Positions 12,420-33,660 of a DNA stretch of 64,000 nucleotides are shown here, in pieces (the stretch's first letter is position 1; each line of letters begins with the position of its first letter). The stretch is from Bacillales bacterium (GTDB lineage Bacteria > Bacillota_I > Bacilli_A > RF39 > UBA660). Both the position numbers and the translations under genes were made by a program. The notes beneath the pieces are model-generated. The model did no database searches. It saw only the letters and a list, made by a program, of their open reading frames with translations, and was not told where the DNA came from. The DNA is taken from positions 85,791 to 149,790 of the forward strand of contig JAEEKI010000014.1 of the NCBI GenBank assembly GCA_016282375.1. Reading direction: 5' to 3'.

Positions 12420-12442
12420 GTAATGCACCTCCATTATTGATA

Positions 12443-14188: not shown

Positions 14189-14201
14189 ACTAAATACCTC
14201 C

Positions 14202-15032: not shown

Positions 15033-15282
15033 CGTTATCAACCTCCAAGGTGTACTCATGTTAATTATATCATTAATTCTTCACTTTTCATATATTATTA
15101 AAAATAATCGGATTATCTTTATAATATCTTTTTTTATGAAAATAATTATCAAACATATATGTATCGATATCATCATAATCAACGTTATCAATTACATAAC
15201 TAACTATCGTTTTGGTCTCAAATATATCGTTGTTTTTTAGATATTTTAATTAGATAATGCATGTAAAATTTTATGTAGAGGC

Positions 15283-16908: not shown

Positions 16909-17352
16909 AAATACCTCTATTTAAAATCTAATAATGGTAGTGTCATTTATCTGAACCGAAACATTGATAACTCTTAGGAAATATATATCTTTAATCATTG
17001 ACCTCTTTACACCAACCATTTAACTTATTTAAAAATCCACTTTTTGAATCCGTGATAATTGCTTATTTTTCCATGATCCATCCAAATACTGACTTATCTT
17101 TGCTTTTAACAAATTTCGTTTTTGTCACCTTATAATTAGCGTTAGAATATACCAAATTATTACATCTATCATACATCTTGATTATTTCATAATTAATTTG
17201 GATGTCAGCTAGTTTTATTCTTACACACATTTACTACTTATTTCCCTTACTATAATAAGTATAACATATCTATTATATAAATAATAGTTCAATAAAAAGC
17301 CTTGTTTTATAAGGATTTTTATTACTTAAATTAACATATATACATTTTATAA

Positions 17353-18363
17353 TTATTTAACATTTATCTCTTTTATAATACTCTCTCCATGAGTTTTAAT
17401 CTTAACTGGAGTTAAGATATTAGCAATCTTAAGTTCTTCAATGGTTTTAGGTCTTAGTTCTACTAACTTATCTAGTTCATCATTAGTAAATACATAATAA
17501 GCTGGTATTCCCATTTCAGTTGACCTATTTTTACGTAGTTCAATTAATCGTTCTTTTAAATTATCATTAACAGGTACACTATTTTGACAATATTTATTCT
17601 TATAATAGTCATAATAATTAATATCTTCTTTAATAGATAATTCTAAATATGATTTTGCTAGTTCTTCCATGGATTTTCTTGAATCAAATGATTCATCATT
17701 ACCTCGATGGTTTATGTCGTATTCCATTTGTCTTACTAAAGCATCAGCTCTTAAAACTTTATATTTAATATCTTTTGGAGCACGATTAGTATTTAAAATC
17801 GTATCTTGATTAGCGGCTACTACTAAAACTCTTCGATAGTAATCAAAATTCTTGGAAGCAAAAAACTTTCTTATTCTGGAAGTATTACTTTCCCATATTT
17901 TTCTTACTACTTCTCTTTGTGCTTCAACTTGTCTTAAAGGAGAATACATTCCCTTTTTTATTTTCTTACCATTAATAACATATTCTCTTATAAAATCGCC
18001 TTTATCAGTAACTGTAATATTACCTACTAGATTTTTACATTCAATATAATAAATATAAACAGGCGTAATTATTACATAGTCTATTTGGGCAGTTAAATCC
18101 TCATATTTTAATTTAATATCTCTTAAAACATACATGCCTATATGAGCTTTCTTTAGTTGATAAGCTATCTCATTTTCTCCATCTAAGCCTTTTTTAACAA
18201 TATAAAGTTCACTCATTAAGTCTTCGTTATTAGGATATTCTTCATTTAATTTTTTTAATGCATCATACTTACTTTGTAAATCACTATCTTCTTTATAAAA
18301 AACAGTATCTTTAAATCTAAAGGCATCAAATGCTGAATCTATTACACTATCTATTAGTCCCAT
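17353..18363 (-). CDS. NERD-domain protein with C-terminal HRDC/HhH-like tail
   Basis: GLDGENEIAYQL...QIDYVIITPVYIYYIECKN matches the NERD pattern. The C-terminus IPAYYVFTNDELDKLVELRPKTIEEL resembles an HRDC-like helix bundle. Confidence 0.65.
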   Translation of the reverse strand: MGLIDSVIDSAFDAFRFKDTVFYKEDSDLQSKYDALKKLNEEYPNNEDLMSELYIVKKGLDGENEIAYQLKKAHIGMYVLRDIKLKYEDLTAQIDYVIITPVYIYYIECKNLVGNITVTDKGDFIREYVINGKKIKKGMYSPLRQVEAQREVVRKIWESNTSRIRKFFASKNFDYYRRVLVVAANQDTILNTNRAPKDIKYKVLRADALVRQMEYDINHRGNDESFDSRKSMEELAKSYLELSIKEDINYYDYYKNKYCQNSVPVNDNLKERLIELRKNRSTEMGIPAYYVFTNDELDKLVELRPKTIEELKIANILTPVKIKTHGESIIKEINVK

Positions 18364-18398
18364 TTATATCACCAATTTCATTATATCACACAAAAGAT

Positions 18399-18421
18399 TA
18401 CTTCAAGTAAAAAAGACTACT
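18399..18421 (-). terminator. terminator overlapping the UvrD-like stop codon
   Basis: AAGACTAC-TGA-GTAGTCTT followed by TTTTTT (minus strand). Confidence 0.65.
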
Positions 18422-20682
18422 CAGTAGTCTTCTTTTGCTTCATTAATAATATCATCAATCTCGCGTATAAATTCACTTCTGTTTTTTGCATTTTCATCAA
18501 TTAATAAGTATACCCTATTCTTAGTTCTTGTAAGAGCTACATAAAATAATCTTCTTTCTTCGGCAAAAGGAATATGCTCTTCAATAGGTTTATTTTTATA
18601 TAACTCTTCATACCAATAAATATTTGTATGAACTGATGGAAATGTTTTATTTAAACCAATAATAATTACTTCATCATAAGTTAAACCTTTTGATTTATGC
18701 ATAGTCATACTATCAATTTGAATATCTTCATTACCTTTGAATGTAATTTTTGAACCTATATCATCAAGTAATTCTTCATCTTCGAGGATACGATTAATCA
18801 TTCTATTAGTTCTGCCTAAAACTAGGATATTATGATCTGGATAATTATCATGTATTTCTAGTATTGTTTTCTTTAAACAATCTATTTCCGCTAGATTATT
18901 TGATGAACTATCAAACTTTTTATAAATAATTGGATTATCAAGATGTTTACTAGATATTAATTTTTTTCTTAATTGATCTGGGTTACGCATAATAAAAGTA
19001 CCTGAATAATCTATTAATTCTTGACTATTACGATATGTCCTAGAAATATTAAAACTTTTAGAACCTTGAAAGAATTTCTCAAAATTATATATATACTCGA
19101 TTCTTGAACCACTGAAAGCATAGATACTTTGCCAATCATCTCCGACTGCATATACTTTAGCATCGTTCTTTTTTGCCGTTTTATATGTTAATTCATATTT
19201 AATTTGAGATATATCTTGATATTCATCAATAATAATATAATCAAAACGTAATTTTGTATCAATAGTTAGTTTTTCCAAATACTTTACTGAGAAATATAAT
19301 AAATCCGCAAAATCAAAATAGTAATAATCTCCCCCAAAAGCGGCTTCGGAATAAAAGTTAGTAAAATTAATTAAATACTTATACTGAATAGCTATCTTTT
19401 CATCATCACAATTATCGACATATTCTTTTGCTCGATCATAATCACTGCGATAAAAAGACTCTTTACGAGTAATTAAACAATCATATAAAAAATATAAGAA
19501 TGGATATACTTGGGATGTTGGATTAAGTCTCAAAAGATGTTCATAAACTTCTTCATCTGATAATTCATGATATACAATACCTAAATCTTTTAATTTTTTA
19601 TCTAGTACATCCACTATGTTTTCTAAAGGTAAACGGTCTATCTCAATAAACTTATTACCTCTTTTTTTATGAAAATCTCTTTTATACTTTCTTATTTTAT
19701 TATACTCTTGATCATCTAAACCGAAATACTCAATATATATTTTTTCACCAGCATAATCAATTGTAAAATCCGGTTTATAAATAGCTCTATTTTCTAATAA
19801 TTCTTCATATACTTCTTCATAATAATAATCAAGTCCATGAGTATATAGGAAATTAGCTATAACCATCTCACCTGCTGATTTAACATATTCTCCTTTTAAA
19901 GAACGAATATCAGTATCTTTTAATAATTGTTTATTAACCTTTTCTTCGATTAAAGTCTTTATATCTTTATTCTTAGCTTCCTCAAGTTTATATTTAACAT
20001 ATCCATCCACTAAATCATCATATGAATCAAATCTTTTATAATTATTTAAAAAGAAATTGCCAAAAATAAACCCTGATTTTTCTTTAACAATATCAAAATT
20101 ATTAATTATTTCTTCAATATGTCTTTTATCTTTAAATATATTTCTAAAGTAATCTAAGAATATTTCATTTTTCTTATTGCGATCCATAATGACACATTTA
20201 CAATCATTAAAAATTTCTTTAATATATTCATAACCTAAAGAATGAAAGGTTGTAATATGAACAGGTAGTTCAAAACTCTCTTCGATTTTACGAGCAATCT
20301 CTTCAGTTGCTTTTCTAGTATAACTCATAACTAAAATACGTTCAGGATCAGCATGTTTTTTATCGACTAAGTATTTAACCTTAGATACCATGGTTGTTGT
20401 TTTACCAGTACCTGCTCCGGCGATTATTAAAGAGTATTTTTCATCAGCTAAAATAGCCTTACATTGTTCTTCATCTAAATGAATATTATCATCAATACCT
20501 TTGTACATGTTAGCAAAGTAGTCTTTATTCTCTAAATATAGTCTATCTAGTATCTTGGTATTATATGCATCTAAATCAAATCCTGAAGGTATTAAACTAC
20601 TTTCATTTTCTTTGATATAATCATATAAATACTTTGAGATATACTCATTATTCTTATATTTACTAACAAACTGACTATCCAT
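18421..20682 (-). CDS. UvrD/Rep-family helicase, helicase IV-like with inserted nuclease-like module
   Basis: AGAGTGKTTT, IIIDEYQD, RTYRN, MTMHKSKGLTYDEV and VALTRTKNRVYL. Insert GEMVIANFLYTHGLDYYYE...YKPDFTI...YIEYFG resembles the HelD/PD-(D/E)xK-like segment. Confidence 0.8.
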   Translation of the reverse strand: MDSQFVSKYKNNEYISKYLYDYIKENESSLIPSGFDLDAYNTKILDRLYLENKDYFANMYKGIDDNIHLDEEQCKAILADEKYSLIIAGAGTGKTTTMVSKVKYLVDKKHADPERILVMSYTRKATEEIARKIEESFELPVHITTFHSLGYEYIKEIFNDCKCVIMDRNKKNEIFLDYFRNIFKDKRHIEEIINNFDIVKEKSGFIFGNFFLNNYKRFDSYDDLVDGYVKYKLEEAKNKDIKTLIEEKVNKQLLKDTDIRSLKGEYVKSAGEMVIANFLYTHGLDYYYEEVYEELLENRAIYKPDFTIDYAGEKIYIEYFGLDDQEYNKIRKYKRDFHKKRGNKFIEIDRLPLENIVDVLDKKLKDLGIVYHELSDEEVYEHLLRLNPTSQVYPFLYFLYDCLITRKESFYRSDYDRAKEYVDNCDDEKIAIQYKYLINFTNFYSEAAFGGDYYYFDFADLLYFSVKYLEKLTIDTKLRFDYIIIDEYQDISQIKYELTYKTAKKNDAKVYAVGDDWQSIYAFSGSRIEYIYNFEKFFQGSKSFNISRTYRNSQELIDYSGTFIMRNPDQLRKKLISSKHLDNPIIYKKFDSSSNNLAEIDCLKKTILEIHDNYPDHNILVLGRTNRMINRILEDEELLDDIGSKITFKGNEDIQIDSMTMHKSKGLTYDEVIIIGLNKTFPSVHTNIYWYEELYKNKPIEEHIPFAEERRLFYVALTRTKNRVYLLIDENAKNRSEFIREIDDIINEAKEDY

Positions 20683-20723
20683 ACTTCCTACCTATAATAA
20701 CATTATACCATATTACTCCAATT

Positions 20724-20746
20724 AAAAAAGACTACATAGTAGTCTT
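20724..20746 (-). terminator. terminator of the AAA/VWA operon; same hairpin sequence as at 18399-18421
   Basis: AAGACTAC-TAT-GTAGTCTT followed by TTTTTT (minus strand). Confidence 0.65.
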
Positions 20747-21143
20747 AAATATATTTATCGTAGATACCATCTTCAAATTCAGCTCGATCAAGAATAGTAA
20801 TATTATGTTCTAAAGCTAAATCTTTCATTTCCATATCAGTATAAAAATTAGTTATGATTAAGCCATGGTTAACATTTTCTTTTTCCATATCTTTAAGAGT
20901 TTCTTTAATATGCTTTTCTTTAATCTTGGTATTTAAAAATGACTGAGCTGTATATCTAACTCCATCTTTAGTAACTATTTGGTCATTATCATTAATTTTA
21001 TCACCATCACATACTCTTACATCATCAATCTTAAGATAATCATAATGTTTTTTATAAAACATGGTATTAACATAATTTCTAAACTCTCTTGGTTCCATAT
21101 AGTTATCAACTATATCTATTTCTTTTATCTTTTTTTCTTCCAT
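20745..21143 (-). CDS. small cytoplasmic protein, possibly with a degenerate Mrr/restriction-endonuclease-like fold
   Basis: Last gene of the AAA/VWA operon, with a strong terminator at its stop. The layout FRNYV...CDGDKI...RYTAQSF...GLIITN loosely follows Mrr_cat, but the catalytic Lys is not evident. Confidence 0.3.
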   Translation of the reverse strand: MEEKKIKEIDIVDNYMEPREFRNYVNTMFYKKHYDYLKIDDVRVCDGDKINDNDQIVTKDGVRYTAQSFLNTKIKEKHIKETLKDMEKENVNHGLIITNFYTDMEMKDLALEHNITILDRAEFEDGIYDKYI

Positions 21144-21160
21144 TTTATTGTCTCCTTTTA

Positions 21161-22792
21161 CTATCTACGGCCTCGACCATAATTGTCTTCTTCGGTATAA
21201 GTTAATTCTGTTGATAACATATCTTTATAGTCTTTTTCACTGACATGAATAATTCTTCCTCCAACTGGAGTAAAGTCCATTTTATCGCCAAAAACAATCC
21301 ATATAATATCTGGTACTCTTGTTACTTGAGGTCTTCCTAAACATCCATCAGTAAAGACAATTTTGACCATTTCCTTTCCAGGATCGGGTGAAAATGATGT
21401 CGCTGCTAATTCAAAATTAGTACCACCACCTATTACTGGTCGATATTCAGCTATTTCTTTTTTACTTCTTATAACTTGAAAATCAGTAACAGTATCAGAA
21501 AAAGTGCCTACTTTCATAGTTAAATCTTCTTCATCATATATTTCTTCAAAGATTTCATATAATTGTAATAAAAATCCTCTTAATAAACTCATTGATATAG
21601 AGCTTGAAACATCTAGTCGTACTTCAATAGAACATAATCCTTCGATAATTCTTTCTTCCACCCGTGGATTAGGATAACTTCTAGAAGATCTTCTTGTACT
21701 CCAAACTTCTTCCGTTTTTTCTAAGATACCTGTTAATAACATTTTCCAAGATAGAATTGGCTTTGTTGGTTCAGCTTTACCGATTCCATTTTGAGCTCTA
21801 ATTTTTGATAATGAACTTTGGGCATCTTTTTGACTTTGTTTTTCACGATTTTCTAATTCTTTATTAAAGATGTCTTCATCATCAATATGTTCTTCTTGAC
21901 TCTCAGTTGTTGACTGTCTTTGTGAATCCTTTTTGTCTTCTTCTTTACTATTATCTTTTGATTTACCTGTCCATTGTTCATGGGAATCAAATCCATCATA
22001 CTCATCAGGGTTTATGTTATCAATCGATGATGAATTATTATTTCCTTGTTCTTGCTTATTATCATTTTCATTATCTTGACTATTTTGATCACTACTTTGT
22101 TTTTGACCATCACTTTGTTCTTGTGAATTATTTTGATTTTGGGAATTTTGATTGTTACCTGAAGATTGTTGATTACCTTGATTATTATGCTCTTGATTTT
22201 TTTGTTCTTCTTGTTTTTTCTTTGCTTCTTCCTCTTCTTTTTGAACTAATTGATCATATATTTTTTCGGCACTTTTAACTAAACCATCTGCTAATTCCAC
22301 AAACTGCATTTTTTGACCAGTCTTTGGATTTGTAACATTTGTTGGGAAAGAAAATCCATCTTTTTTTAAGAAAGCATTAATACAAGCATCTGTAGCTATA
22401 TTCCAAACTCTTTGATAATGCATATGTAACTGTGCTCTTTTAGCTTGTCTTTTTGCCTCATCCGTTTCTATTTGACAATACTCATCATATTTTCTTTGTT
22501 CATCTTTTTCTGGTTTGTCTAAAGACCTAGCAAAGTGTTTTAAAGCAATGTGCATTGCTTCATGAGCCAAAACAAAAACTCGCTCACTAAAAGATAAGCG
22601 ATCAAAAAAATCAGGATTAACAACGATTTTTTTTATTTCAATAATGCCTTTATCATTTTTTTCACCGACCACAGCCGCCGTATCGATACTTTTATCAAGT
22701 TCTATATCTACGCCATGTAAAGCAAGACCAGCCGTAAGTTGATATCTTCTGACAACGGATTTTTTAACTTTTTCTAATTCTTCGACAGTCAT
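21161..22792 (-). CDS. VWA-domain / putative metallopeptidase protein (DUF2201-like) with Q/N/S-rich linker
   Basis: VLAHEAMHIALKH and NIATDACINAFL (DUF2201_N-type HExxH). C-terminal VWA-like VRLDVSSSIS...GGGTNF...VFTDG. About 145 aa of low complexity lie between them. Confidence 0.7.
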   Translation of the reverse strand: MTVEELEKVKKSVVRRYQLTAGLALHGVDIELDKSIDTAAVVGEKNDKGIIEIKKIVVNPDFFDRLSFSERVFVLAHEAMHIALKHFARSLDKPEKDEQRKYDEYCQIETDEAKRQAKRAQLHMHYQRVWNIATDACINAFLKKDGFSFPTNVTNPKTGQKMQFVELADGLVKSAEKIYDQLVQKEEEEAKKKQEEQKNQEHNNQGNQQSSGNNQNSQNQNNSQEQSDGQKQSSDQNSQDNENDNKQEQGNNNSSSIDNINPDEYDGFDSHEQWTGKSKDNSKEEDKKDSQRQSTTESQEEHIDDEDIFNKELENREKQSQKDAQSSLSKIRAQNGIGKAEPTKPILSWKMLLTGILEKTEEVWSTRRSSRSYPNPRVEERIIEGLCSIEVRLDVSSSISMSLLRGFLLQLYEIFEEIYDEEDLTMKVGTFSDTVTDFQVIRSKKEIAEYRPVIGGGTNFELAATSFSPDPGKEMVKIVFTDGCLGRPQVTRVPDIIWIVFGDKMDFTPVGGRIIHVSEKDYKDMLSTELTYTEEDNYGRGRR

Positions 22793-22794
22793 AA

Positions 22795-23196
22795 TTATTC
22801 CTGAATTTCTATGTATTGTACTGCTTCCATTATTTCAGGAAGAATTGGACATTTAGTATTGGCATTGATGATAATCCTTAGATTACTTGGTAGTTTTTCA
22901 CTAGAAATACAATTACGACAAATAATATCCATAAACAATTTTTGTTCTTCAAGAGATATTTTATCAAAATCAGTTATACATAAAATATTAGTAGTTTCAT
23001 ACCCATTTTTTAATACTCTTAAATACCATAATGGATAATTATTACCATTAATAATTAAATCTTTCTTAGGAATAGTCGCAGATATCTTCGTAATATAATC
23101 ATTATCTTTAATATCCATTGTCCCTGAAACATAAATGGGAATAACATAATCAAGTAAACTTTCTTTAATAATAGCTAAAACTTCATCACTTTTCAT
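22795..23196 (-). CDS. hypothetical 133-aa protein resembling an AAA+ core that lacks Walker A
   Basis: ILCITDFDKISLEEQKLFMDII...LPSNLRIIINAN resembles the MoxR Walker-B/sensor-1 region. No P-loop is present. Gaps of 11 nt and 2 nt to the neighbouring genes. Confidence 0.45.
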   Translation of the reverse strand: MKSDEVLAIIKESLLDYVIPIYVSGTMDIKDNDYITKISATIPKKDLIINGNNYPLWYLRVLKNGYETTNILCITDFDKISLEEQKLFMDIICRNCISSEKLPSNLRIIINANTKCPILPEIMEAVQYIEIQE

Positions 23197-23207
23197 TTAA
23201 TTCCTCC

Positions 23208-25838
23208 TTATCTTACTGGGGCACTTACTGTAACCGTTTCTGAAGCTGCCTTTAAGACATTATTTCGATGTTTTTTCATAGATTGATAAACGGATAAGAA
23301 TTCATCGCCTAAACACTCACAAATAAAGCTCTCGATTGTTATTTCATCACCATCATATTCGGAAATAATAATACCTAAAGCATAATATTTATCTTCAATG
23401 CTTGGAAAATCATAAGCAGTATACTCGCCATTTTTTATTTTATCCATCTCCACAATAAAAGGTTTTGTGTAATGTTCATAAAAAATCTCGGCGATAGTTT
23501 GTTCATCTACGGCTTTAATTTTTTGGCCTCCCAAAACGGATTGAATTCTTCCAAAACTTGCCTTATTTCTAACTCCACCTCTTGCTTCGGCTGCATATAT
23601 CACTTTGGATACTTGTTCCCAAGTTCGAGGTGTTAAAAATTTACTTGTAACGTTTTCAGGATCATATTGACTAAACATTACTTTATCGGGATGAGCATAG
23701 CAAAAAGAAAAAACAGTTGGATGGATACGTAATTTTCCTGTCAAAGGATTAGTCTCTAATGCCCAAGTGGCCCATTCATCAATATCAAATTCTATCTCTA
23801 ACATGGAATCAACCCGGTTATGAAGAGGTTTAGGCATAATACCACCACTTCGATCAACTCTAACTGCTGAAGATTCTTCTGGTCTATTACCAGCAACTAC
23901 GATAGAACAGTTATCTGGTAATGGCCACTCTTCATGACCGCTTACTAATCGAGCTCCAATTACCTCCCAAACAAGATTTTTAATAGTATCATTTACATTT
24001 GTAAATTCATCTATAAACAAAACATGCTTACGATTAGGTTCAGCCTGACACTTTTGACATAAAACAACATACCAATGTGGTGGATATATTTCTCCTGGAT
24101 TACCATTAGGTTCTTTACCACCAATTACTTCTTCTGATAACATACCATTTTTTAAGATTAATAATGTTGCTGTTGGGTCTATTTCAAAAACCCGACTACT
24201 TTTTCCTACTCCAGATGGTCCCCATAACATGGTTGATAAACCATCTTCAATGTTAAGACGTAACTTCTCTGTAACATTTTCTTCATGCTCAATTGTATAC
24301 ACTTGAGAAATAATTTTATCTTTTAACTTTTTAGCATTAGCTAACAAAGTCTTCTTTTGCTTGTCTTGAAATCTATCCGCCGCTGTTACAACCGCTGAGG
24401 CTACTTTATAACCAGCATTTGGATGTTTCATAACATTATCTAATACATTAAAATCGAAAGATTTATTAACGATACTTATTAAAACTGCTTCATGTAAATC
24501 ATTCTCTAATAATTTATTAATAAGTTTTTCATAATTATTAGATTTATATATTGCTTCGACTAATGCTAAAGCTAATTTGGTATCTAAATTAGGATATTCA
24601 ATTGCTCTAGACAATACTTCATCAGAAAAATTTTCGCTAATCAATAGACAGATATCATCTGTATTTAGTCCATCAATGGCAAAAAAGGCATCGATATCTT
24701 CACTACTAAACCTACCTTTATTAATCATCAAGTTAATTCTAACCTTTTTATCTGATAAAGGATTGGCAATTATTTTGCTAACAACTTCATCAGAAATTTT
24801 ATTCTTAGCCATTTGCGCTAATATTGCTCCTGTACAACATGGATGATTAATGATAGCAAAATAGACATCAGACATACTATATTCAAAGGCAGATAATAAT
24901 TTAACAAGTTCAGTTGCTACCGCTTCATTAAAAGCAGGACTATTAATAATATTAAGGAATCTTGTTGTTGTACTAGATACTGGATATCCAACAATACTAA
25001 GACTCATATTCCTTATAATACTTAATAATACATTCGGAGTAACGTTCGGAGCACTACATATATTTAGACAATATTTATAAGCATCCATTTTTAATAAAGT
25101 ATCTTCCGTACAATATGGCGAACTAATTATCTCAGCACCAAAACTATTTTTTAATCTTTCAAGGTTTGCTATGACAGAACTTTCAAATACCTCTTTAGTC
25201 ATTTTAGGGTGACTTAAAGCTTTACCGACAAAATCATAAGCCAAACTAGAAGTACTAAGACAGGCTTCTAATGCGCTTTTTAAATTATCGGATGTAAAGG
25301 CTGGATTATTCATACAAGCTGTTAGAACATCAACACTTGACCTAGCTTTAATAATAGCATCAATAACGACTGATGTACACTTACTATTCTGAAGGATTAA
25401 TAAACAAACATTTCGAAGGAACTCAAGTGTACGATTTGCCTTCACAGAAGAAATTATTAACAATAAATGTTCTTCGGTTAAATATGGACATTCAAGAATA
25501 GCTTTAATAATTGATATATCATTAAGGAAACCATATTGAATTAATTTAGTCAATAATTGAGAATTAAAATGTGTATTGCTAATAATTGATGGATATAAAT
25601 ATATAGAATTTAAATTAGTAACCTTATCCAAGACTACGCTTAAAACATTCTCATCACAAACAGGGCTTTTTAAAACAGCATTATATACATCCTCATTATT
25701 ACACTTTTTAACAGCGGTAATAAGTACTAGGGGTGTTACACCAGGATCTTCTTTAATAATATTTTTAACTATAGTATAACTATAAGAATAATCATTTATC
25801 TTTTTTATTAACTCTTCTTCTGTACTACCATTAATCAT
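23208..25838 (-). CDS. MoxR/AAA_5-like ATPase with ~500-aa N-terminal LRV/HEAT-like repeat array
   Basis: C-terminal half has LWGPSGVGKSS and VLFIDEFTNV...VVAGNRPEES...LHNRV. The N-terminal half has about 12 repeats of the type (I/L)xxxPxx(T/S)xxxLxxx. AGGTGGTG RBS precedes the ATG at 25838. Confidence 0.72.
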   Translation of the reverse strand: MINGSTEEELIKKINDYSYSYTIVKNIIKEDPGVTPLVLITAVKKCNNEDVYNAVLKSPVCDENVLSVVLDKVTNLNSIYLYPSIISNTHFNSQLLTKLIQYGFLNDISIIKAILECPYLTEEHLLLIISSVKANRTLEFLRNVCLLILQNSKCTSVVIDAIIKARSSVDVLTACMNNPAFTSDNLKSALEACLSTSSLAYDFVGKALSHPKMTKEVFESSVIANLERLKNSFGAEIISSPYCTEDTLLKMDAYKYCLNICSAPNVTPNVLLSIIRNMSLSIVGYPVSSTTTRFLNIINSPAFNEAVATELVKLLSAFEYSMSDVYFAIINHPCCTGAILAQMAKNKISDEVVSKIIANPLSDKKVRINLMINKGRFSSEDIDAFFAIDGLNTDDICLLISENFSDEVLSRAIEYPNLDTKLALALVEAIYKSNNYEKLINKLLENDLHEAVLISIVNKSFDFNVLDNVMKHPNAGYKVASAVVTAADRFQDKQKKTLLANAKKLKDKIISQVYTIEHEENVTEKLRLNIEDGLSTMLWGPSGVGKSSRVFEIDPTATLLILKNGMLSEEVIGGKEPNGNPGEIYPPHWYVVLCQKCQAEPNRKHVLFIDEFTNVNDTIKNLVWEVIGARLVSGHEEWPLPDNCSIVVAGNRPEESSAVRVDRSGGIMPKPLHNRVDSMLEIEFDIDEWATWALETNPLTGKLRIHPTVFSFCYAHPDKVMFSQYDPENVTSKFLTPRTWEQVSKVIYAAEARGGVRNKASFGRIQSVLGGQKIKAVDEQTIAEIFYEHYTKPFIVEMDKIKNGEYTAYDFPSIEDKYYALGIIISEYDGDEITIESFICECLGDEFLSVYQSMKKHRNNVLKAASETVTVSAPVR

Positions 25839-25910
25839 AATATACACCACCTATTATAAATATCATAACATATAATTAAATACATATAAATAAAAAAGTA
25901 TATTTCAAGG

Positions 25911-26045
25911 CATAAAAAAATATGCAGTATGTCGGACATGCATATTTTTCTGCGGAGTTTTTCAACTATGAGTATATCGACATTTAACTCATAGCCCTTA
26001 TCAAGATTCCGCGAGTGACACCCAGTTAATAGCCTTGATAAAATT
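25911..26045 (-). promoter_or_regulatory. structured leader or small RNA with intrinsic terminator upstream of the LRV-AAA operon
   Basis: Minus-strand stems UUAUCAAG/CUUGAUAA, GCGGA/UCCGC and CUAUGAG/CUCAUAG. Then AAAAAUAUGCA-loop-UGCAUAUUUUUUU, about 70 nt before the start codon at 25838. Confidence 0.35.
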
Positions 26046-26380
26046 TTTCAACCATTAATTTATTTTTTTATCACATTCATCTAATTAATACAGTTAAGTA
26101 AATAATTCTATAAATATGACTTTATAAATTAATATTGTAGCTTTTCTTATAAATACTTATTTTATTAAATATTTATAATTTTTCAATTATTTATTTATAC
26201 TGTTACATATATTTAAATAATTTACTCTTTTAATTAAATTTAAATTTCTTTAAACTTAATTTTAACTATTTGTTAATAGCTATTGCTACTACTCTATTAA
26301 CTGTTTATACTATACCATATTCATAACTAAGATGTCAATCACTTTTTGAAAAATTATTTTATTTTTTTGTAAAGTAACAA

Positions 26381-26412
26381 AAAAACAAGTTACTTCCTAA
26401 TAACTTGTTTTT
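26381..26412 (-). terminator. terminator after the 26425-27525 gene
   Basis: 12-bp stem AAAAACAAGTTA/TAACTTGTTTTT, with the T-run extended on the minus strand. Confidence 0.7.
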
Positions 26413-26424
26413 AATTTCTTATTA

Positions 26425-27525
26425 CTATGGAGTTGATGGACCATCTAATGTGAAGCCAATGTTGAATGTTAAGAATGCACCAGATGCAGAAGTATCACAG
26501 TCGATATCTTGTCCTTCTATCCAGATATAAACCCGAATTTTTGTTACACCAGCACTTAATGATAAACCAATATCCATTGGATCACCTGTTCCTGATGAGA
26601 ATGCTGTATTAGTTCTCTTAATATTGCTACCTGTCATAGCAGTAAATACTGAACTGTTATCAGTAGCATTTGTATTAGGCCATGCTATTTCATTAGCATC
26701 TGAGATAGTTGTCTTAACTCCATCCCATGAAACCCAATCGTTACCACTACTATTAGCAGTTAATGATGCATATGTTGCATTAGCTACGGTACCATAAGTA
26801 TAATCTTGATAATACAAACGAGCTTGTTCAATACCGTATGCATTGTGTCCATCATAATTTGGTTCAACAATAATTGCACTACTTCCACCAGTATAACCTG
26901 CTAATGTTTTTGGATCAGTTGTTGCAGTATTATTACCTTCTACGATAAACGCATACCTAGCAGCATATTGAGCACCTTTATCAGCTTTCGTAGCTGTAAC
27001 AGTAGCACCAGAACCTGCATCTAAGTATACGGTTCCTGCTTCATCTAGTTTTAAGAAAATATCGAAGGCGATAAAATCACCAATTGTTGTTGATTTTGCT
27101 TCAGGTGATGCAACTGCTGTTAAGCCTAAAACGCCATCATTATTTTTATCTTCAATAGTTCCTTTAAACATTGCCATCTTTCCACTTGATATGGCACCTA
27201 CAGTAGATACTGGTACAAGATTAGTTAAACTGAACATATTTTCATCAACTAAGTCATTTGTATCATCGTTATCAGTTGTATCAAATGAATATCCTGTAGT
27301 TATATCACCATTAGAAATTAATGTCTTCCATGTATTTGCATCCGTCGAAATTTGGATACCACTACTCGTAGCAACGGTTACATTAATGGCATCAATAGTA
27401 ACATTTCTATTTGCCGTAAACCATGCATACGTTGATGTTGCTAACAAAATTATTGTCAGGAATAGCAGTAGCAGTAAAGAACCTAATTTTCTTTTCTTCT
27501 TTCCATTTTTCTTTTTAGAACTCAT
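26425..27525 (-). CDS. exported protein with SipW-cognate (TasA-like) N-terminus
   Basis: KKKRK-LLLLLFLTIILLATSTYAWFTAN. C-terminal motif IRVYIWIEGQDIDCD is shared with the upstream gene. Confidence 0.65.
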   Translation of the reverse strand: MSSKKKNGKKKRKLGSLLLLLFLTIILLATSTYAWFTANRNVTIDAINVTVATSSGIQISTDANTWKTLISNGDITTGYSFDTTDNDDTNDLVDENMFSLTNLVPVSTVGAISSGKMAMFKGTIEDKNNDGVLGLTAVASPEAKSTTIGDFIAFDIFLKLDEAGTVYLDAGSGATVTATKADKGAQYAARYAFIVEGNNTATTDPKTLAGYTGGSSAIIVEPNYDGHNAYGIEQARLYYQDYTYGTVANATYASLTANSSGNDWVSWDGVKTTISDANEIAWPNTNATDNSSVFTAMTGSNIKRTNTAFSSGTGDPMDIGLSLSAGVTKIRVYIWIEGQDIDCDTSASGAFLTFNIGFTLDGPSTP

Positions 27526-27545
27526 TTAATTCACTCCATTTCATT

Positions 27546-28253
27546 CTATTTCGTATTTATATGTTCTTCAGTGACTTTCATGTGCATCTTTAATTGACCA
27601 CCAACTAAAGCATCAACACAATCCGGGTCATCACCCTCAATCCATATAACTACAGTAATTTTATCAAATTCACCCGGAGCCAAATTCTTACGCACTTCGC
27701 TAATTATGGTTCCGTCCTCTTTAGGTTTAAAACCGATAGTATCTTTTTCTGGCTGTCCATCCATGTGGTTTACTTTGGCATAAATCTTTTTATCATCGTT
27801 AACAAAAATCATTACTCTTATTGCTTCATCAACATCTTTAACGACATCATCTTCAATCATTTCATACCAGTAATTAAAGACTGTATCGCTTTGATTCTCA
27901 ACATAGAATGTGTAAGCTATGTAATTATCACCATTATGGGAACCTTCTGCTTCATCATTGATATTATCAGGAATCCAACGAATAGATATGTTATCCATAA
28001 ATTGGAGATTTTCCGCTGATAATCTTCTTTTAGGCGTTGGATCTTTTTGGGATTCATAAATAGCCATACCACTTTCTAATTGTTTGTTGTCTTTGATACT
28101 AACATAAAAACTACCATTGTTCATTTTAAATCCTAGTACGATATAAACACCAAACATCAGAATTAATAAAAGTAAAATTGCTAGTTTAAGTTTTCTACCA
28201 AAACTCTGCCACCATTTGACTTTCGAGGCAGTTACAATGACATCTTTAGCCAC
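27546..28253 (-). CDS. membrane-anchored paralogue of the 26425-27525 product
   Basis: One TM helix (LAILLLLILMFGVYIVLGF). C-terminus ITVVIWIEGDDPDCVD parallels IWIEGQDIDCD. GTG start with GGGAG RBS. Confidence 0.55.
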   Translation of the reverse strand: MAKDVIVTASKVKWWQSFGRKLKLAILLLLILMFGVYIVLGFKMNNGSFYVSIKDNKQLESGMAIYESQKDPTPKRRLSAENLQFMDNISIRWIPDNINDEAEGSHNGDNYIAYTFYVENQSDTVFNYWYEMIEDDVVKDVDEAIRVMIFVNDDKKIYAKVNHMDGQPEKDTIGFKPKEDGTIISEVRKNLAPGEFDKITVVIWIEGDDPDCVDALVGGQLKMHMKVTEEHINTK

Positions 28254-28470
28254 ATAACCACTCCCTTCAGAAAACGTGGTTTTAAACTACAGTATATGAC
28301 TCACCTATCATATACATTACCATTATAATATATTGCTTTTTAGATTGCAACAATTTTTTTCCTTTTTTGATGTGTATTTACCACTGTAAATATCAAATGT
28401 CAATTTGACAAAGAAATTACATTTTAAGTGTATATTATTATATAATATATATGAATAAGGAGGAGTATCT

Positions 28471-29049
28471 ATGAGATATGGTAGAAAAATTGCTATATTC
28501 GCTGCTTTGATAGCCATGTTTTATTGTGTCTCATTGATTCAATCCACCTATGCTAAATACGTAACAAGCGCTGTTGGAACAGCAAATATGACCTTTGCAA
28601 GATGGAATATTCTAGTTAACGATCAAGATGTTGTTAATAATTCTAATTTTAGTACTACTATTCTTCCAGACTTTACAGGAACTACTAATATTCGCAGTGG
28701 TGTCATTGCACCTACTTCTCAAGGCTCATTTGATATTGAATTGGATATGACTGATGTTGACGTTAGTTTAGATTATACCATCTCTGCTGCTGTATCATCC
28801 AGTAATACAGTTACCGATTTAAAAATTATAAGTTACACCATTGATAATGTTACTACTCAATATACCAATAGTATTACTAATCGTGTATTACTAAGTAGTA
28901 CTGATCGTGTTGTAACAGTAACCTTTAATGTTGAATGGGTTGAAGATGCTCAAGATGGTGCTGTCATGAACAATGCTGCTGATACCGCTGCTGCTACAAG
29001 TGGTGTAGCTGCTATTGATGTAAGTGTTAACTTTGTTCAAGTTAGATAA
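28471..29049 (+). CDS. small TasA/camelysin-like exported protein (SipW-type signal)
   Basis: FYCVSLIQSTYAKYVTS and GVIAPTSQGSFDIELD. Clear paralogue of 36900-37511. AAGGAGGAG RBS. Confidence 0.65.
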   Translation: MRYGRKIAIFAALIAMFYCVSLIQSTYAKYVTSAVGTANMTFARWNILVNDQDVVNNSNFSTTILPDFTGTTNIRSGVIAPTSQGSFDIELDMTDVDVSLDYTISAAVSSSNTVTDLKIISYTIDNVTTQYTNSITNRVLLSSTDRVVTVTFNVEWVEDAQDGAVMNNAADTAAATSGVAAIDVSVNFVQVR

Positions 29050-30979: not shown

Positions 30980-32110
30980 TTAACTCCTAAACTCGAAACT
31001 AACAATTTTACTAATGGTACTTTGAATTTTAACATTAAGTTTTTGTTGAATTTCTTCGATTGTGGCTTCCTTCTTATTACGAATAACCGCAATTTTATCG
31101 CCAATAACCTTTTGTAACTCTTCAAGTGGTAAGTCAGAATTGATTTCTACGATTTTCGTAATCATATTATTAGTAAGTGTTTCAACTAATTCTTTATTAT
31201 TATCTTGTTTAGCCGCTTTAGCATTATCTCCTAAACTATTAACAATTAAATAGTTTAATAAGAATACATCATCAAACATATTTTTAACAGTAACATTTTC
31301 TTTGATAGTGTTACTTGTTTTTGTTGTCTTATTACCATTATCAATATATGCTTGTAAATAATTCCATAATTTCATGGCATATTGAAAGTTGGTATTTTTT
31401 AAAATAAGATTTGTTTTCTTAATTGGCGGTGTTACTCTTGCTACGTTAGCTTTGTCTAGTAATTTAAAAACATCAGTTCTAGTTAAGTCTGAAACTTGCA
31501 ATTCAAGTTTATCAATTCTTTCTTCGACAGTTAAATCATTATTACGTCCATATTCAGATGATGTATTAGATTTCGAAGCCATCGAAACATTAATATCGAC
31601 TAATTCCGAACCCACTCTTGATGTGCCATGATATTCACTTTTCTTACTATCTTTAACAAAGGATTTAGTGATTAAATCCCTTTTCTTCATAGAAATAAAC
31701 ATTTGCATGTTTTTAATCAATGTATAAATTACTCTGTTTTCGTATGTATTATAGTTTTCATCTTTATTAATGTTTAAAATCTTCGAAGGTTTAACATCAC
31801 CGTTTTTCTCGATTTTTTGAATCATACTTGTATTACGAGCTAAATGTTTAATACTTTCAACGGTTACTCTTCGAGCTTTTTCAACATTAACAACTTCTTC
31901 TTCATTAATAATGAAACGGTTGGGGTTTCTTAAGATGTTATCAATATACATTACGGTACCTTCCATTAATTCCAACCATTCAAAATCAGCCTCAAAGGAT
32001 TCAACATTAGTACTTACAGTATATTCTGATTTAACACTATTGTTGAAAGAAGCAATTTTTCTAGCATCGGTTTTTGTATATAAGTCTAATACCTTTAATT
32101 CTTGATCCAT
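30980..32110 (-). CDS. McrC-N-terminal-like (DUF2357-like) partner protein with no recognisable nuclease
   Basis: NYNTYENRVIYTLIKNM resembles E. coli McrC NEDTLANRIIKSTLAIL. No PD-(D/E)xK motif found by eye. Helical/coiled C-terminus. Starts 10 nt after the McrB-like gene. Confidence 0.5.
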   Translation of the reverse strand: MDQELKVLDLYTKTDARKIASFNNSVKSEYTVSTNVESFEADFEWLELMEGTVMYIDNILRNPNRFIINEEEVVNVEKARRVTVESIKHLARNTSMIQKIEKNGDVKPSKILNINKDENYNTYENRVIYTLIKNMQMFISMKKRDLITKSFVKDSKKSEYHGTSRVGSELVDINVSMASKSNTSSEYGRNNDLTVEERIDKLELQVSDLTRTDVFKLLDKANVARVTPPIKKTNLILKNTNFQYAMKLWNYLQAYIDNGNKTTKTSNTIKENVTVKNMFDDVFLLNYLIVNSLGDNAKAAKQDNNKELVETLTNNMITKIVEINSDLPLEELQKVIGDKIAVIRNKKEATIEEIQQKLNVKIQSTISKIVSFEFRS

Positions 32111-32120
32111 AGTCTACTCC

Positions 32121-33653: not shown

Positions 33654-33660
33654 AAACACC

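What the first reader, a model, noticed from the sequence alone, without database searches (positions are those of the whole stretch)
20745..25838. Four-gene operon in a defence island: LRV-repeat MoxR-like AAA+, degenerate AAA-like protein, VWA/metallopeptidase, small Mrr-like protein
Gene gaps are 11, 2 and 17 nt, with a strong terminator at the end (20724-20746).
- Gene 1 fuses about 12 LRV/HEAT-like repeats (for example ILECPYLTEEHLLLI, IISSPYCTEDTLLKM, IINHPCCTGAILAQM) to an AAA_5/MoxR core (GPSGVGKSS; LFIDEFTNV).
- Gene 2 (133 aa) looks like an AAA core without a P-loop.
- Gene 3 is a DUF2201-type HExxH (HEAMH) plus VWA protein, split by a ~145-aa Q/N/S-rich linker.
- Gene 4 loosely follows the Mrr catalytic-domain layout.
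MoxR-VWA pairs are known chaperone-like modules. In comparative-genomic work they have also been proposed as cores of NTP-dependent conflict (defence) systems.
This locus sits among an RM system, GmrSD, AIPR, NERD and helicases. It has a repeat-array sensor-like N-domain and a possible nuclease as its last gene. Together these make an uncharacterised antiphage system plausible.
Basis: partly seen in the sequence, partly recalled or inferred. Interest (0 to 1): 0.78.

Follow-up and report, generated by a model that had tools for sequence, protein, structure and literature searches.

The report
Sensor-ATPase, protease-VWA candidate immune module
The four genes are real, but the conserved unit is a rare, uncharacterised three-gene module found in uncultured bacteria, most of them from animal and human guts: a motor ATPase with a fast-evolving repeat "sensor", a dead copy of the motor core, and a zinc protease fused to a VWA domain. 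It looks like a new variant of predicted bacterial immune systems, but it is untested.

Summary
**Observation: confirmed.** Four co-directional genes on the minus strand have gaps of 11, 2 and 17 nt and a terminator at 20728-20746.
- g1 is an alpha-solenoid of about 13 repeats plus a MoxR-type AAA+ domain.
- g2 is an inactive paralogue of g1's AAA core (hhalign 96.9%, E 1.3e-10).
- g3 is DUF2201_N (HEAMH) plus a VWA domain with a full MIDAS motif, split by a disordered Q/N/S-rich linker.
- g4 matches Mrr_cat.

**Interpretation: partly supported.**
- The conserved unit is g1-g2-g3. g2 lies next to g3 in 26 of 32 informative loci, all from uncultured MAGs, almost all Bacillota.
- g4 occurs only in this species and seems to lack the catalytic lysine.
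- Neighbourhoods elsewhere are mostly housekeeping. PADLOC does not recognise any of the four proteins.

**New evidence for a sensing or conflict role.**
- g1's N-terminus evolves much faster than its motor (17-25% versus 52-70% identity).
- In relatives this N-terminus is replaced by ankyrin, LRR, WG-repeat or DUF6273 domains.
- In six related loci an RT and an Avd-like gene lie upstream. In the four I examined there is a TR/VR pair, and in three of them the VR lies inside the 5' part of g1 (34 of 39 mismatches at template adenines).
- One genome carries three tandem copies that differ mainly in that same loop.

**Verdict.** This is a new variant of the MoxR-vWA conflict systems. Function and mechanism are inferred, not shown.

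The parts
23208..25838 (-). g1: 876-aa sensor-ATPase (N-terminal alpha-solenoid plus MoxR-type AAA+ and a helical C-terminal domain)
   Evidence: ORF. PHROG 1297 'ATPase' E 1.8e-28 over aa 529-828. AF2 model pLDDT 87. Foldseek hits to NorQ, CbbQ and McrB for the C-terminal half. 1172 representative relatives at E <= 1e-3.
24300..25838 (-). g1 N-terminal domain, aa 1-513: 33 short helices forming about 13 hairpin repeats, with (S/N/H)P-x-x-(T/D) turns. Putative ligand-recognition (sensor) domain.
   Evidence: AF2 secondary structure and loop listing. Foldseek matches to HAT, TPR, ARM and importin solenoids. Only 17-25% identity to close homologues, versus 52-70% in the motor. No Pfam LRV hit.
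23208..24299 (-). g1 AAA+ motor and C-terminal helical domain, aa 514-876. Walker A GPSGVGKSS (24195-24221), Walker B LFIDEF (24003-24020), sensor-1 AGN (within 23883-23903).
   Evidence: Motif coordinates checked. G540, G545, K546, E611 and N651 are invariant in 121 relatives; D610 and R675 are nearly invariant (90% or more). AAA_5 and AAA_3 hits in relatives. NorQ TM 0.57-0.64.
22795..23196 (-). g2: 133-aa degenerate paralogue of the alpha/beta core of g1's AAA+ domain. It has no Walker A, and Walker B DE is replaced by D-F-D (ILCITDFD, within 22951-22986).
   Evidence: No Pfam, NCBIfam, PADLOC or PHROG hit. hhalign of the g2 family against the g1 family: probability 96.9%, E 1.3e-10, g2 aa 7-116 aligned to g1 core strand 1 through sensor 1. 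Present next to g3 in 26 of 32 informative loci.
21161..22792 (-). g3: 543-aa zincin-like metallopeptidase (DUF2201_N) plus VWA (DUF2201) protein
   Evidence: Pfam. PHROG 1314 E 4.7e-50. About 60 homologues at 35-58% identity. In 53 homologues H77, E78, H81, D135, the MIDAS residues D394, S396, S398 and D482 are invariant, and T458 is nearly so. VWA fold. Full-length structural matches to phage metallopeptidase-VWA proteins, E 1e-14.
22178..22792 (-). g3 metallopeptidase domain, aa 1-205, with HEAMH at 22550-22564
   Evidence: DUF2201_N E 4.5e-21. Confident AF2 region. HExxH invariant.
21758..22177 (-). g3 low-complexity linker (Q/N/S/E/K-rich, mostly disordered), with an invariant island D269-x-H271-x-x-W274 at 21962-22021
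   Evidence: AF2 pLDDT below 50 for aa 206-255 and 278-299. Composition and motif. Invariant columns.
21161..21757 (-). g3 VWA domain, aa 346-543, with MIDAS DVSSSIS at 21593-21613
   Evidence: DUF2201 E 1e-5. Foldseek hits to integrin I and VWA domains, E about 1e-4. MIDAS residues conserved.
20745..21143 (-). g4: 132-aa Mrr_cat-like protein. A lineage-specific add-on, not part of the conserved module. The catalytic Lys position appears to be Phe (RYTAQSFL, 20934-20957).
   Evidence: Mrr_cat 30.1 bits against a cutoff of 21. Found only in identical metagenome copies of this locus. No homologue after g3 in any other locus. The Q-S-F versus Q-A-K reading is a by-eye alignment to E. coli Mrr (one search gave no significant alignment).
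20728..20746 (-). Intrinsic-terminator-like hairpin with T-run that closes the operon
25839..26338 (-). Upstream region. It holds a promoter-like site TTGACA-18-TATAGT (26338-26309), a structured segment 25905-26050 ending in a terminator-like hairpin, then weaker promoter-like sites (25890-25862) and the ribosome-binding site.
   Evidence: z -3.7. No Rfam family. Its role is not established.

Best explanation
g1-g2-g3 form a three-gene, ATP-dependent sensing and effector module. It resembles the 'MoxR-vWA ternary conflict systems' predicted by comparative genomics.

**Proposed mechanism** (all steps are inferred from domain logic and from analogy to NorQ-NorD and the Kaur et al. model; none is shown here):
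1. g1 assembles as a MoxR-type AAA+ ring. Its N-terminal alpha-solenoid is the specificity element and binds a foreign protein, from a phage or another invader.
2. g2, a catalytically dead copy of the AAA core, acts as an adaptor or regulatory subunit of the ring.
3. The VWA domain of g3 docks on the ring through its MIDAS site.
4. When ligand binds, ATP-driven remodelling activates the zinc metallopeptidase of g3. This might happen through the disordered linker and its conserved D-S-H-x-x-W island.
5. The peptidase then cleaves host or invader targets, arresting infection or growth.

**g4.** In this genome a small Mrr-fold protein has been added at the 3' end. It is probably an accessory DNA-binding or degenerate nuclease module, not a core effector.
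For: **Shown**
- The triad is conserved with strong homology across distinct genomes: g1 38-54%, g2 32-59% and g3 33-55% identity. g2 is adjacent to g3 in 26 of 32 informative loci.
- Active-site motifs are invariant or nearly so: Walker A and B, sensor 1, the Arg at 675, HExxH with D135, and a full MIDAS.
- g2 is an inactive AAA core.
- The g1 motor is MoxR-like in structure: NorQ TM 0.57-0.64, CbbQ 0.54.
- The N-domain evolves much faster than the motor.
- In relatives the N-domain is replaced by ankyrin, LRR_5, WG-repeat or DUF6273-type domains.
- Six related loci carry an upstream RT and a roughly 200-aa gene with a weak Avd-like match, tested in two loci, E 1e-4 to 7e-4.
- The RT has the signature motifs: [LI]GNQTSQ in three of the four aligned RTs and YMDD in all four.
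- A template/variable repeat pair was found in all four loci examined. In three it could be scored, and its variable copy lies inside the 5' part of g1. Mismatches at template adenines are 11/13, 16/17 and 7/9.
- One genome has three tandem copies (the third cut by the contig end) whose five g1 paralogues compared differ mainly in that same loop.
- No conserved client gene lies nearby, and the genomic position varies.
- In this window the module sits between GmrSD, DpnII, AbiU-like and helicase genes on one side and a PDC-M26A/DUF2357 cluster on the other.

**From the literature**
- MoxR-vWA ternary systems, some DGR-linked and some with peptidases fused to the vWA protein and an inactive NTPase as third component, are predicted immune systems (PMC7159879, PMC10907252, PMC12839542).
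- One MoxR-vWA pathway has experimental support in threat sensing (PMC13622651).
Against: - There is no experimental evidence for this family.
- None of the four proteins matches a PADLOC v2 model.
- Homologous loci mostly lie among housekeeping genes, for example BipA, ScpAB, Mur ligases, RNase J and rpoC. They are not clearly enriched in defence islands.
- Characterised MoxR-VWA pairs (RavA-ViaA, NorQD, CbbQO) are maturation chaperones.
- Phage homologues of the g1 motor plus g3 pair are predicted virion-assembly chaperones (PMC7824862).
- DGRs also diversify non-immune binding proteins.
- The window's own g1 has no DGR, so that support comes from relatives with only about 40% identity in the motor.
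- The target of the peptidase, the role of g2 and the trigger are all unknown.
Confidence: 0.5

Rival explanations
1. The triad is a housekeeping chaperone or processing machine. Like RavA-ViaA, NorQ-NorD or CbbQ-CbbO, it would remodel or proteolytically mature a specific cellular protein complex. On this view the solenoid is a client adaptor, and the defence-island location in this window is a coincidence.
For: - The MoxR-type fold and the VWA partner are those of known maturation systems (PMC10585395).
- Most homologous loci are flanked by housekeeping genes.
- There are no PADLOC hits.
Against: - No gene is conserved next to the triad apart from the DGR parts.
- The distribution is patchy and the genomic position varies.
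- The N-domain is swapped between unrelated repeat classes and is DGR-diversified.
- Tandem paralogue arrays differ in the binding loop.
- An active zincin is fused to the VWA domain, which is not a feature of the known maturation pairs.
Confidence: 0.2
2. The locus is a phage-derived or mobile-element module. On this view it is a remnant or cargo of a prophage or island that serves the element's own biology, such as particle assembly or processing, or superinfection exclusion, rather than host immunity as such.
For: - The g1 motor and g3 match PHROG 1297 and 1314.
- The ATPase plus metallopeptidase-VWA pair is common in N4-like, rV5-like and jumbo phages (PMC7824862).
Against: - Phage matches are distant: 22-30% identity, motor only, with no N-domain and no g2.
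- No close relative was found among 2.9 million viral contigs.
- No phage structural or integrase genes flank the triad in the loci inspected. The one recombinase, in L013, lies about 5 kb downstream.
Confidence: 0.1
3. The locus is a genuine four-gene system in which g4 is the nuclease effector.
For: - The gap to g4 is 17 nt and the terminator lies only after g4.
- g4 scores above the Mrr_cat threshold.
- Two other loci also have a tightly coupled but unrelated fourth gene, which suggests a variable accessory slot.
Against: - g4 is absent from all other loci.
- By eye, the (Q/E)xK lysine is replaced by Phe, although one search gave no significant alignment.
- g4 has no relatives in the plasmid collection.
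Confidence: 0.15

Closest known systems
MoxR-vWA-centric ternary conflict systems (VMAP, iSTAND, FtsH and beta-propeller types; Kaur, Burroughs, Iyer and Aravind 2020, PMC7159879; DGR-linked examples in PMC10907252)
   Same: - A MoxR-type AAA+ gene is paired with a MIDAS-bearing vWA gene plus a third conserved component.
- A peptidase is fused to the vWA protein.
- There is a hypervariable recognition domain and a DGR association in part of the family.
- The iSTAND type also uses an inactive NTPase as its third component (PMC12839542).
- One relative's g1 weakly matches Pfam bpMoxR (E 1.1e-5, below cutoff).
   Different: - The third component is a 130-aa dead copy of the AAA core, not VMAP, iSTAND, FtsH or a beta-propeller.
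- The variable (and DGR-targeted) domain sits on the N-terminus of the MoxR protein itself, not on the C-terminus of the vWA protein.
- The peptidase is an active-looking zincin (DUF2201_N) N-terminal to the VWA domain.
- The hosts are mostly gut-derived uncultured Bacillota MAGs, not multicellular cyanobacteria or actinobacteria.
- This triad is not described in that paper.
Phage MoxR ATPase plus metallopeptidase-vWA pair (PHROG 1297 and 1314; N4-like, rV5-like and jumbo phages; Iyer et al. 2021, PMC7824862)
   Same: - It has the same two-protein core, with homologous ATPase and DUF2201_N plus VWA proteins.
- hmmsearch scores: E 4e-33 and 1e-23.
- Foldseek against BFVD: E 1e-14 over the full length of g3.
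   Different: - The phage ATPases are about 380 aa and have no N-terminal sensor domain.
- There is no g2. The small gene between the pair in Vibrio phage SBP1 is a real HNH endonuclease.
- The phage linker is short.
- The proposed role in phages is virion assembly.
NorQ-NorD, CbbQ-CbbO and RavA-ViaA (characterised MoxR-VWA maturation chaperones)
   Same: - They are the best structural matches for the g1 motor: 9qhd and 9qh4 NorQ at TM 0.57-0.64, and 6l1q CbbQ2 at 0.54.
- They also have a VWA partner with a MIDAS site.
   Different: - Those systems sit next to their client genes.
- Their motors are short and carry no repeat-array domain.
- Their VWA partner has no peptidase.
- They have no dead-AAA third subunit.
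STAND/Avs-type antiviral ATPases with repeat sensors
   Same: The logic is the same: a P-loop ATPase is fused to a rapidly evolving helical-repeat domain that recognises an invader protein, and an effector is activated on binding.
   Different: - The ATPase class differs: a MoxR-type AAA+ ring versus STAND.
- The sensor is N-terminal.
- The effector is on a separate VWA-linked protein.
- There is no sequence relationship.

Membership tests
MoxR-type AAA+ ATPase (AAA_5/AAA_3 group) | Walker A GxxGxGK[ST], Walker B hhhhDE, and a sensor-1 Asn followed by an NPxE-like motif and an Arg finger | tested here: met
   - GPSGVGKSS, LFIDEF, AGNRPEES and PLHNR are present.
- These columns are invariant or nearly invariant in 121 relatives.
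MoxR-type AAA+ ATPase (AAA_5/AAA_3 group) | Significant match to the AAA_5 or AAA_3 profiles | tested here: inconclusive
   - The window protein scores only E 0.024, at 15 bits against a cutoff of 22.
- In relatives, 32 of 60 match AAA_5 (best 1.5e-12) and 16 of 60 match AAA_3.
MoxR-type AAA+ ATPase (AAA_5/AAA_3 group) | Structural similarity to solved MoxR proteins, and a partnership with a VWA protein | tested here: met
   - Foldseek: NorQ TM 0.57-0.64 and CbbQ2 0.54, with McrB lower at 0.45.
- A VWA gene is adjacent in every locus where both genes are visible.
LRV (leucine-rich variant, PF01816) repeats | Match to the LRV profile | tested here: not met
   - No LRV hit at E <= 1.
- The domain is an alpha-solenoid of about 13 helix hairpins with an (S/N/H)P-x-x-T turn. 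It is best described as an unclassified HEAT/LRV-like solenoid.
DUF2201_N metallopeptidase plus DUF2201 VWA-like | Profile matches, an HExxH motif, and MIDAS DxSxS...T...D | tested here: met
   - PF13203 scores E 4.5e-21. PF09967 scores E 1e-5, at 26.1 bits against a cutoff of 26.4.
- The motifs are invariant in 53 homologues; T458 is nearly invariant.
- The VWA fold is confirmed.
Mrr_cat (PD-(D/E)xK restriction endonuclease fold) | Profile match above the gathering score | tested here: met
   30.1 bits against a cutoff of 21, over aa 16-124 and profile positions 4-112 of 115.
Mrr_cat (PD-(D/E)xK restriction endonuclease fold) | Catalytic D...(Q/E)xK residues | tested here: inconclusive
   - By-eye alignment to E. 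coli Mrr (GDGGIDG...VQAKRW) places g4 CDGDKIND...TAQSFL. The Lys position is therefore Phe.
- The automatic pairwise alignment was not significant.
- No structure model was made.
MoxR-vWA ternary conflict systems (Kaur et al. 2020) | A MoxR plus vWA gene pair with a conserved third component of type VMAP, iSTAND, FtsH or beta-propeller | tested here: not met
   - The pair is present.
- The third component, g2, has no Pfam match and aligns to g1's own AAA core.
- No VMAP, iSTAND, FtsH or propeller domain was seen in g1-g4 or among conserved neighbours.
MoxR-vWA ternary conflict systems (Kaur et al. 2020) | Hypervariable recognition or effector domains, with a DGR association in part of the family | tested here: met
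   - Domain swapping and a fast-evolving N-domain.
- RT plus Avd-like genes upstream in six relatives, with TR/VR pairs in the four examined.
Diversity-generating retroelement (in relatives L015, L026, L032, L042; not in the window) | An RT with the [LI]GxxxSQ motif, a TR/VR pair with adenine-specific mismatches, and an Avd accessory gene | tested here: met
   - [LI]GNQTSQ in three of the four aligned RTs (L032 reads LGNLSSQ, which still fits [LI]GxxxSQ) and YMDD in all four.
- 34 of 39 mismatches lie at template adenines in three loci.
- The bAvd match is only weak and below cutoff, E 1e-4 to 7e-4.
Known defence systems (PADLOC-DB v2.0) | Any component matches a system model | tested here: not met
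   There were no hits better than E 0.0085, and those were short and spurious.

The most novel reading that the evidence does not exclude
The triad may be a previously unrecognised class of bacterial immune receptor, found so far mainly in gut-derived Bacillota MAGs. In it the AAA+ (MoxR-type) motor itself carries the antigen-recognition domain.
- That domain would be diversified in three ways across the family: by repeat-array divergence (as in this window), by domain swapping, or by targeted DGR hypermutation.
- It would signal through a dead-AAA adaptor to a VWA-tethered zinc protease, which executes the response.
Probability: 0.4. Interest if true: 0.8.

Novelty: new variant of a known kind. 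Interest (0 to 1): 0.62.

Why it matters
If the triad is an immune module, it has four consequences.
- It extends the MoxR-vWA conflict systems to unicellular Bacillota, mostly from animal and human guts. Until now these systems were predicted mainly in multicellular bacteria and have barely been tested.
- It shows a new wiring: the sensor sits on the motor, the third subunit is a dead copy of the motor core, and the effector is a zincin.
- It offers a compact three-gene system of about 4.7 kb for testing how an AAA+/VWA pair can gate a protease.
- The DGR-targeted relatives would be a further case of programmed hypermutation of a cytoplasmic receptor, which bears on whether bacteria have anticipatory, antibody-like recognition.

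If it is instead a chaperone, the hypervariable N-domain and the DGR link would still need an explanation.

Tried and rejected
- **Word-index search with g1:** it found nothing, because the cluster representative is a 209-aa fragment. The exhaustive search worked.
- **Word-index search with g2:** it found only two relatives. I took g2 homologues from fetched loci instead.
- **PDB sequence searches for g1, g3 and g4:** no meaningful hit.
- **tblastn of g4 against plasmids and g2 against phages:** no match.
- **Is the small gene between the phage ATPase and metallopeptidase-VWA a g2 homologue?** Rejected; it is an HNH endonuclease.
- **Is a fourth gene conserved?** Rejected.
- **Are close relatives phage-borne?** Rejected for IMG/VR.
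- **Rfam on 20000-28500:** nothing.
- **tRNAs as island borders:** none in the window.
- **Exact look-up of the source contig for g3:** not on record.
- **First Pfam run on 121 g1 relatives:** it exceeded the size limit and was repeated with 60.
- **Automatic alignment of g4 to E. coli Mrr:** not significant, so the catalytic-residue statement rests on inspection only.

Full report
**1. What is in the window**

Four ORFs lie head to tail on the minus strand:

| Gene | Coordinates | Length |
|---|---|---|
| g1 | 23208-25838 | 876 aa |
| g2 | 22795-23196 | 133 aa |
| g3 | 21161-22792 | 543 aa |
| g4 | 20745-21143 | 132 aa |

- The gaps are 11, 2 and 17 nt.
- The g1 start is the ATG at 25838, which has an AGGTGG ribosome-binding site. 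The GTG at 25850 lies inside that site.
- A hairpin with a T-run at 20746-20728 follows g4.

**2. Domain identities**

*g3*
- It matches DUF2201_N (E 4.5e-21) and the DUF2201 VWA-like domain (E 1e-5).
- In an alignment of 53 homologues, H77, E78, H81 and D135 are invariant. So are the MIDAS residues D394, S396, S398 and D482; T458 is nearly invariant.
- The AF2 model (pLDDT 75.6) has two confident domains. They are separated by a Q/N/S/E/K-rich, mostly disordered stretch (aa 190-345) that contains an invariant island, D269-x-H271-x-x-W274.
- Foldseek confirms the VWA fold against the PDB.
- Foldseek also finds full-length matches to phage 'metallopeptidase / VWA-like' proteins (E down to 1e-14).

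*g1*
- Pfam sees only a weak AAA_5 match (E 0.024). PHROG 1297 'ATPase' matches aa 529-828 at 1.8e-28.
- Among 60 relatives, 32 match AAA_5 and 16 match AAA_3.
- The AF2 model is confident (pLDDT 87.1). Residues 1-513 form 33 short helices, and an AAA+ alpha/beta domain and a helical C-terminal region follow.
- Foldseek matches the N-terminal part to HAT, TPR, ARM and importin solenoids. It matches the motor to NorQ (TM 0.57-0.64), CbbQ2 (0.54) and, less well, McrB (0.45).
- Alternate loops carry an (S/N/H)P-x-x-(T/D) turn, giving about 13 hairpin repeats.
- Pfam LRV is not matched. 'LRV-like' is therefore a description, not a family assignment.

*g2*
- It has no match in any profile library.
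- A profile of 26 g2 homologues aligns to the g1 family profile over the AAA core, from strand 1 to sensor 1. The probability is 96.9% and E is 1.3e-10.
- Walker A is absent and the Walker B 'DE' is 'D-F-D'.

*g4*
- It scores 30.1 bits on Mrr_cat, against a cutoff of 21.
- By inspection against E. coli Mrr (GDGGIDG...VQAKRW), g4 reads CDGDKIND...TAQSFL, so the conserved Lys would be Phe.
- An automatic pairwise alignment was not significant. This point is inference.

**3. What is conserved elsewhere**

- The exact proteins occur only in this contig and in a few identical short metagenome contigs.
- g3 has about 60 homologues at 35-58% identity, all from metagenomes or MAGs.
- I inspected the genomic context of six of them, plus 29 loci from GTDB representative genomes. 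I re-analysed all of them with HMMs built from the first members.
- Of 32 loci where the region upstream of g3 is visible, 26 have a g2 homologue next to g3, nearly always in the order g1-g2-g3.
- Six more distant loci have g1 and g3 adjacent (order g3-g1 in L045), with no g2.
- No locus other than the window's own species has a g4 homologue.
- In most loci the gene after g3 lies 80 nt or more away or on the other strand. Only two other loci have a tightly coupled fourth gene, and each is different.
- The conserved unit is therefore three genes. g4 is a local addition.
- All 29 GTDB hosts are uncultured MAGs. All but two are labelled Clostridia, Bacilli or related Bacillota, and where a source is named it is an animal or human gut.
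- The exhaustive search with g1 finds 1172 representative relatives at E <= 1e-3. In almost all of the best 150 the motor is preceded by a variable N-terminal region, and in most it lies at the C-terminal end.

**4. Evidence that the N-terminal domain is a diversifying recognition module**

a. Among close homologues, the N-domain is 17-25% identical to the window protein, while the motor and C-terminal region is 52-70% identical. Repeat number also varies.

b. In more distant relatives the N-domain is ankyrin repeats, BspA-type LRR, WG beta-repeats or DUF6273-type modules.

c. Six related loci carry a roughly 200-aa gene and an RVT_1 reverse transcriptase just upstream of the triad.
- In the two loci tested, the roughly 200-aa gene has a weak bAvd-like match, E 1e-4 to 7e-4, below cutoff.
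- Three of the four aligned RTs have [LI]GNQTSQ and the fourth has LGNLSSQ. All four have YMDD. This [LI]GxxxSQ form is typical of DGR enzymes (the motif assignment is from my knowledge of DGR RTs).
- All four loci examined have a direct repeat of about 100-126 nt.
- One copy lies between the Avd-like gene and the RT. In L015, L026 and L032 the other lies inside codons 47-117 of g1.
- In those three loci, mismatches fall at adenines of the upstream copy in 11 of 13, 16 of 17 and 7 of 9 cases. This is the hallmark of DGR mutagenesis.
- In the fourth locus (L042) an indel prevents scoring, and the second copy lies just upstream of the g1 start as called.
- The variable repeat encodes a 'WWSAS...N...RPA' segment of the kind seen in C-type-lectin-fold DGR targets. 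The fold itself was not tested.

d. One MAG (L024) has three tandem copies of g1a-g1b-g2-g3 next to rpoC; the third copy is cut by the contig end.
- The five g1 paralogues compared are 83-91% identical overall.
- Their differences are concentrated in that same loop.

These relatives are true members of the triad family. For L015 against the window, g1 is 40% identical (E 1e-78), g2 32% (E 1e-17) and g3 33% (E 3e-82).

**5. Context**

*In this window*
- Downstream of the triad lie a UvrD-like helicase, NERD-HRDC, PIF1, a DpnII cassette with two methyltransferases and an AIPR/AbiU-like gene, GmrSD and a PDC-M49A-like gene.
- Upstream, beyond a few genes with no Pfam or defence match, lie DUF2357 and a PDC-M26A-like gene.
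- The defence-island claim therefore holds for this window.

*In other genomes*
- It does not hold generally. Homologous triads sit between genes such as BipA, ScpA/ScpB, SpoVA, Mur ligases, RuvX, MltG, RNase J, GatCAB, RpiA and rpoC.
- Across 34 loci, the most frequent Pfam families within three genes on either side are metabolic or housekeeping, apart from the RT.
- With the RTs removed, 26 PADLOC families were hit among 141 neighbours, none by more than two. The 25 listed account for at most about 30 hits. Several are sub-models of one family, so fewer proteins are involved.
- Most are candidate 'PDC' models, plus type I S subunits, MADS, MkoA and AbiEi.
- Without a background control this is inconclusive. 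It is not strong enrichment.
- The triad's position varies between genomes and has no conserved neighbour. That is what one expects of an accessory cassette, and not of a chaperone tied to a client.

**6. Relation to phages**

- The g1 motor and g3 have distant homologues as an adjacent pair in N4-like, rV5-like and jumbo phages.
- A published analysis predicts that pair to be a virion-assembly chaperone with a peptidase (PMC7824862).
- The phage ATPases are short and have no N-domain.
- There is no g2. The small gene between the pair in Vibrio phage SBP1 is a genuine HNH endonuclease.
- No close relative of the triad was found in IMG/VR.
- The cellular triad therefore looks like a derived version of this pair that has gained a sensor domain and a dead-AAA subunit.

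**7. Most likely function and mechanism**

- My best reading, at about 0.5 confidence, is an ATP-dependent sensing and effector (conflict) module.
- The solenoid of g1 would recognise a foreign protein. The MoxR-type ring, with g2 as an inactive adaptor subunit, would engage the VWA/MIDAS domain of g3. ATP-driven remodelling would then switch on the zincin of g3.
- The following are shown: the domain identities, the conservation of catalytic motifs, the triad's conservation, the N-domain's variability and the DGR targeting in relatives.
- The following are inferred: assembly, the trigger, the direction of signalling, the substrates and any immune phenotype.
- Precedents are the predicted MoxR-vWA ternary systems. 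These include an iSTAND type with a peptidase on the vWA protein and an inactive NTPase as third part (PMC7159879, PMC12839542). There are also DGR-linked examples (PMC10907252) and one experimentally supported MoxR-vWA threat-sensing pathway (PMC13622651).
- The triad is not a member of any of the four described types, because the third component differs and the sensor is placed differently.
- I found no description of it in the papers I could search.

**8. Rivals**

- A housekeeping maturation chaperone, about 0.2.
- A phage or mobile-element module serving the element itself, about 0.1.
This overlaps with the main reading.

**9. Verdict**

- Novelty: a new variant of a known (predicted) kind of system.
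- Interest is moderate to high, because the family is compact and testable. It also links a MoxR motor directly to a hypervariable, in part DGR-diversified, receptor domain. Everything functional remains to be shown.

Noticed in passing
window 25905-26338 (- strand): A strong promoter-like site (TTGACA-18-TATAGT with TG, 26338-26309) lies about 470 nt upstream of g1. A structured segment at 25905-26050 follows (MFE -39.8 kcal/mol, z -3.7) and ends in a terminator-like hairpin with a U-run just before g1's own weak promoter and ribosome-binding site. There is no Rfam match. It could be a small RNA or an attenuator for the operon.
   Followed up: partly
window 21962-22021 (g3 aa 258-277): An invariant D-x-H-x-x-W island (YDGFDSHEQW) sits in the middle of g3's otherwise disordered, low-complexity linker. 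It is conserved in all 53 aligned homologues. Its role is unknown; possibilities include an autoinhibitory plug, a cleavage site or an extra metal ligand.
   Followed up: partly
L024:5760-20056: Three tandem copies of g1a-g1b-g2-g3 lie immediately downstream of rpoC in a Bacilli MAG. One g3 is split by a frameshift. The five g1 paralogues compared differ mainly in the loop that is the DGR variable repeat in other loci. No RT lies within the 20 kb held.
   Followed up: partly
L015:5524-7943; L026:5690-7989; L032:4509-6872; L042:5400-7820: Complete-looking DGR cassettes (Avd-like gene, template repeat, RT) lie upstream of the triad, with the variable repeat near the N-terminus of a MoxR-type ATPase. 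In L030 and L037 the RT is split into two ORFs and may be decaying.
   Followed up: yes
L105 (Vibrio phage SBP1, NC_055784.1 13331-16073): RefSeq and PHROG 1314 label the phage metallopeptidase-VWA protein 'HNH endonuclease'. A genuine HNH gene (166 aa) lies between the ATPase and that protein, so the label looks like a carried-over misannotation.
   Followed up: yes
window 10802-15059: The DpnII-type cassette (endonuclease 10802-11659, N6_N4 methyltransferase 11652-12434, Dam-type methyltransferase 14202-15059) has an AIPR/AbiU-like gene (12443-14188) inserted between its two methyltransferases.
   Followed up: no
window 15283-20682: The PIF1-like helicase (15283-16908) and the UvrD-like helicase (18421-20682, with an insert at aa 250-343) each match different parts of the PADLOC candidate PDC-S68. 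A NERD-HRDC gene (17353-18363) lies between them. This may be a split or multi-gene version of that candidate system.
   Followed up: no
window 5740-7875 and 30980-33659: There are further candidate defence genes. One is a PDC-M49A-like protein of 711 aa (E 2.4e-31). The other is a DUF2357 protein next to a PDC-M26A-like protein (E 1.2e-36).
   Followed up: no
window 26425-27525 and 41822-50719: The gene just upstream of the operon encodes a 366-aa protein. It has a basic N-terminus, a hydrophobic segment and an 'AWFT' motif, which is reminiscent of TasA/camelysin-type exported proteins (from memory, not tested). Further on lies a 2965-aa ORF, which I did not examine.
   Followed up: no
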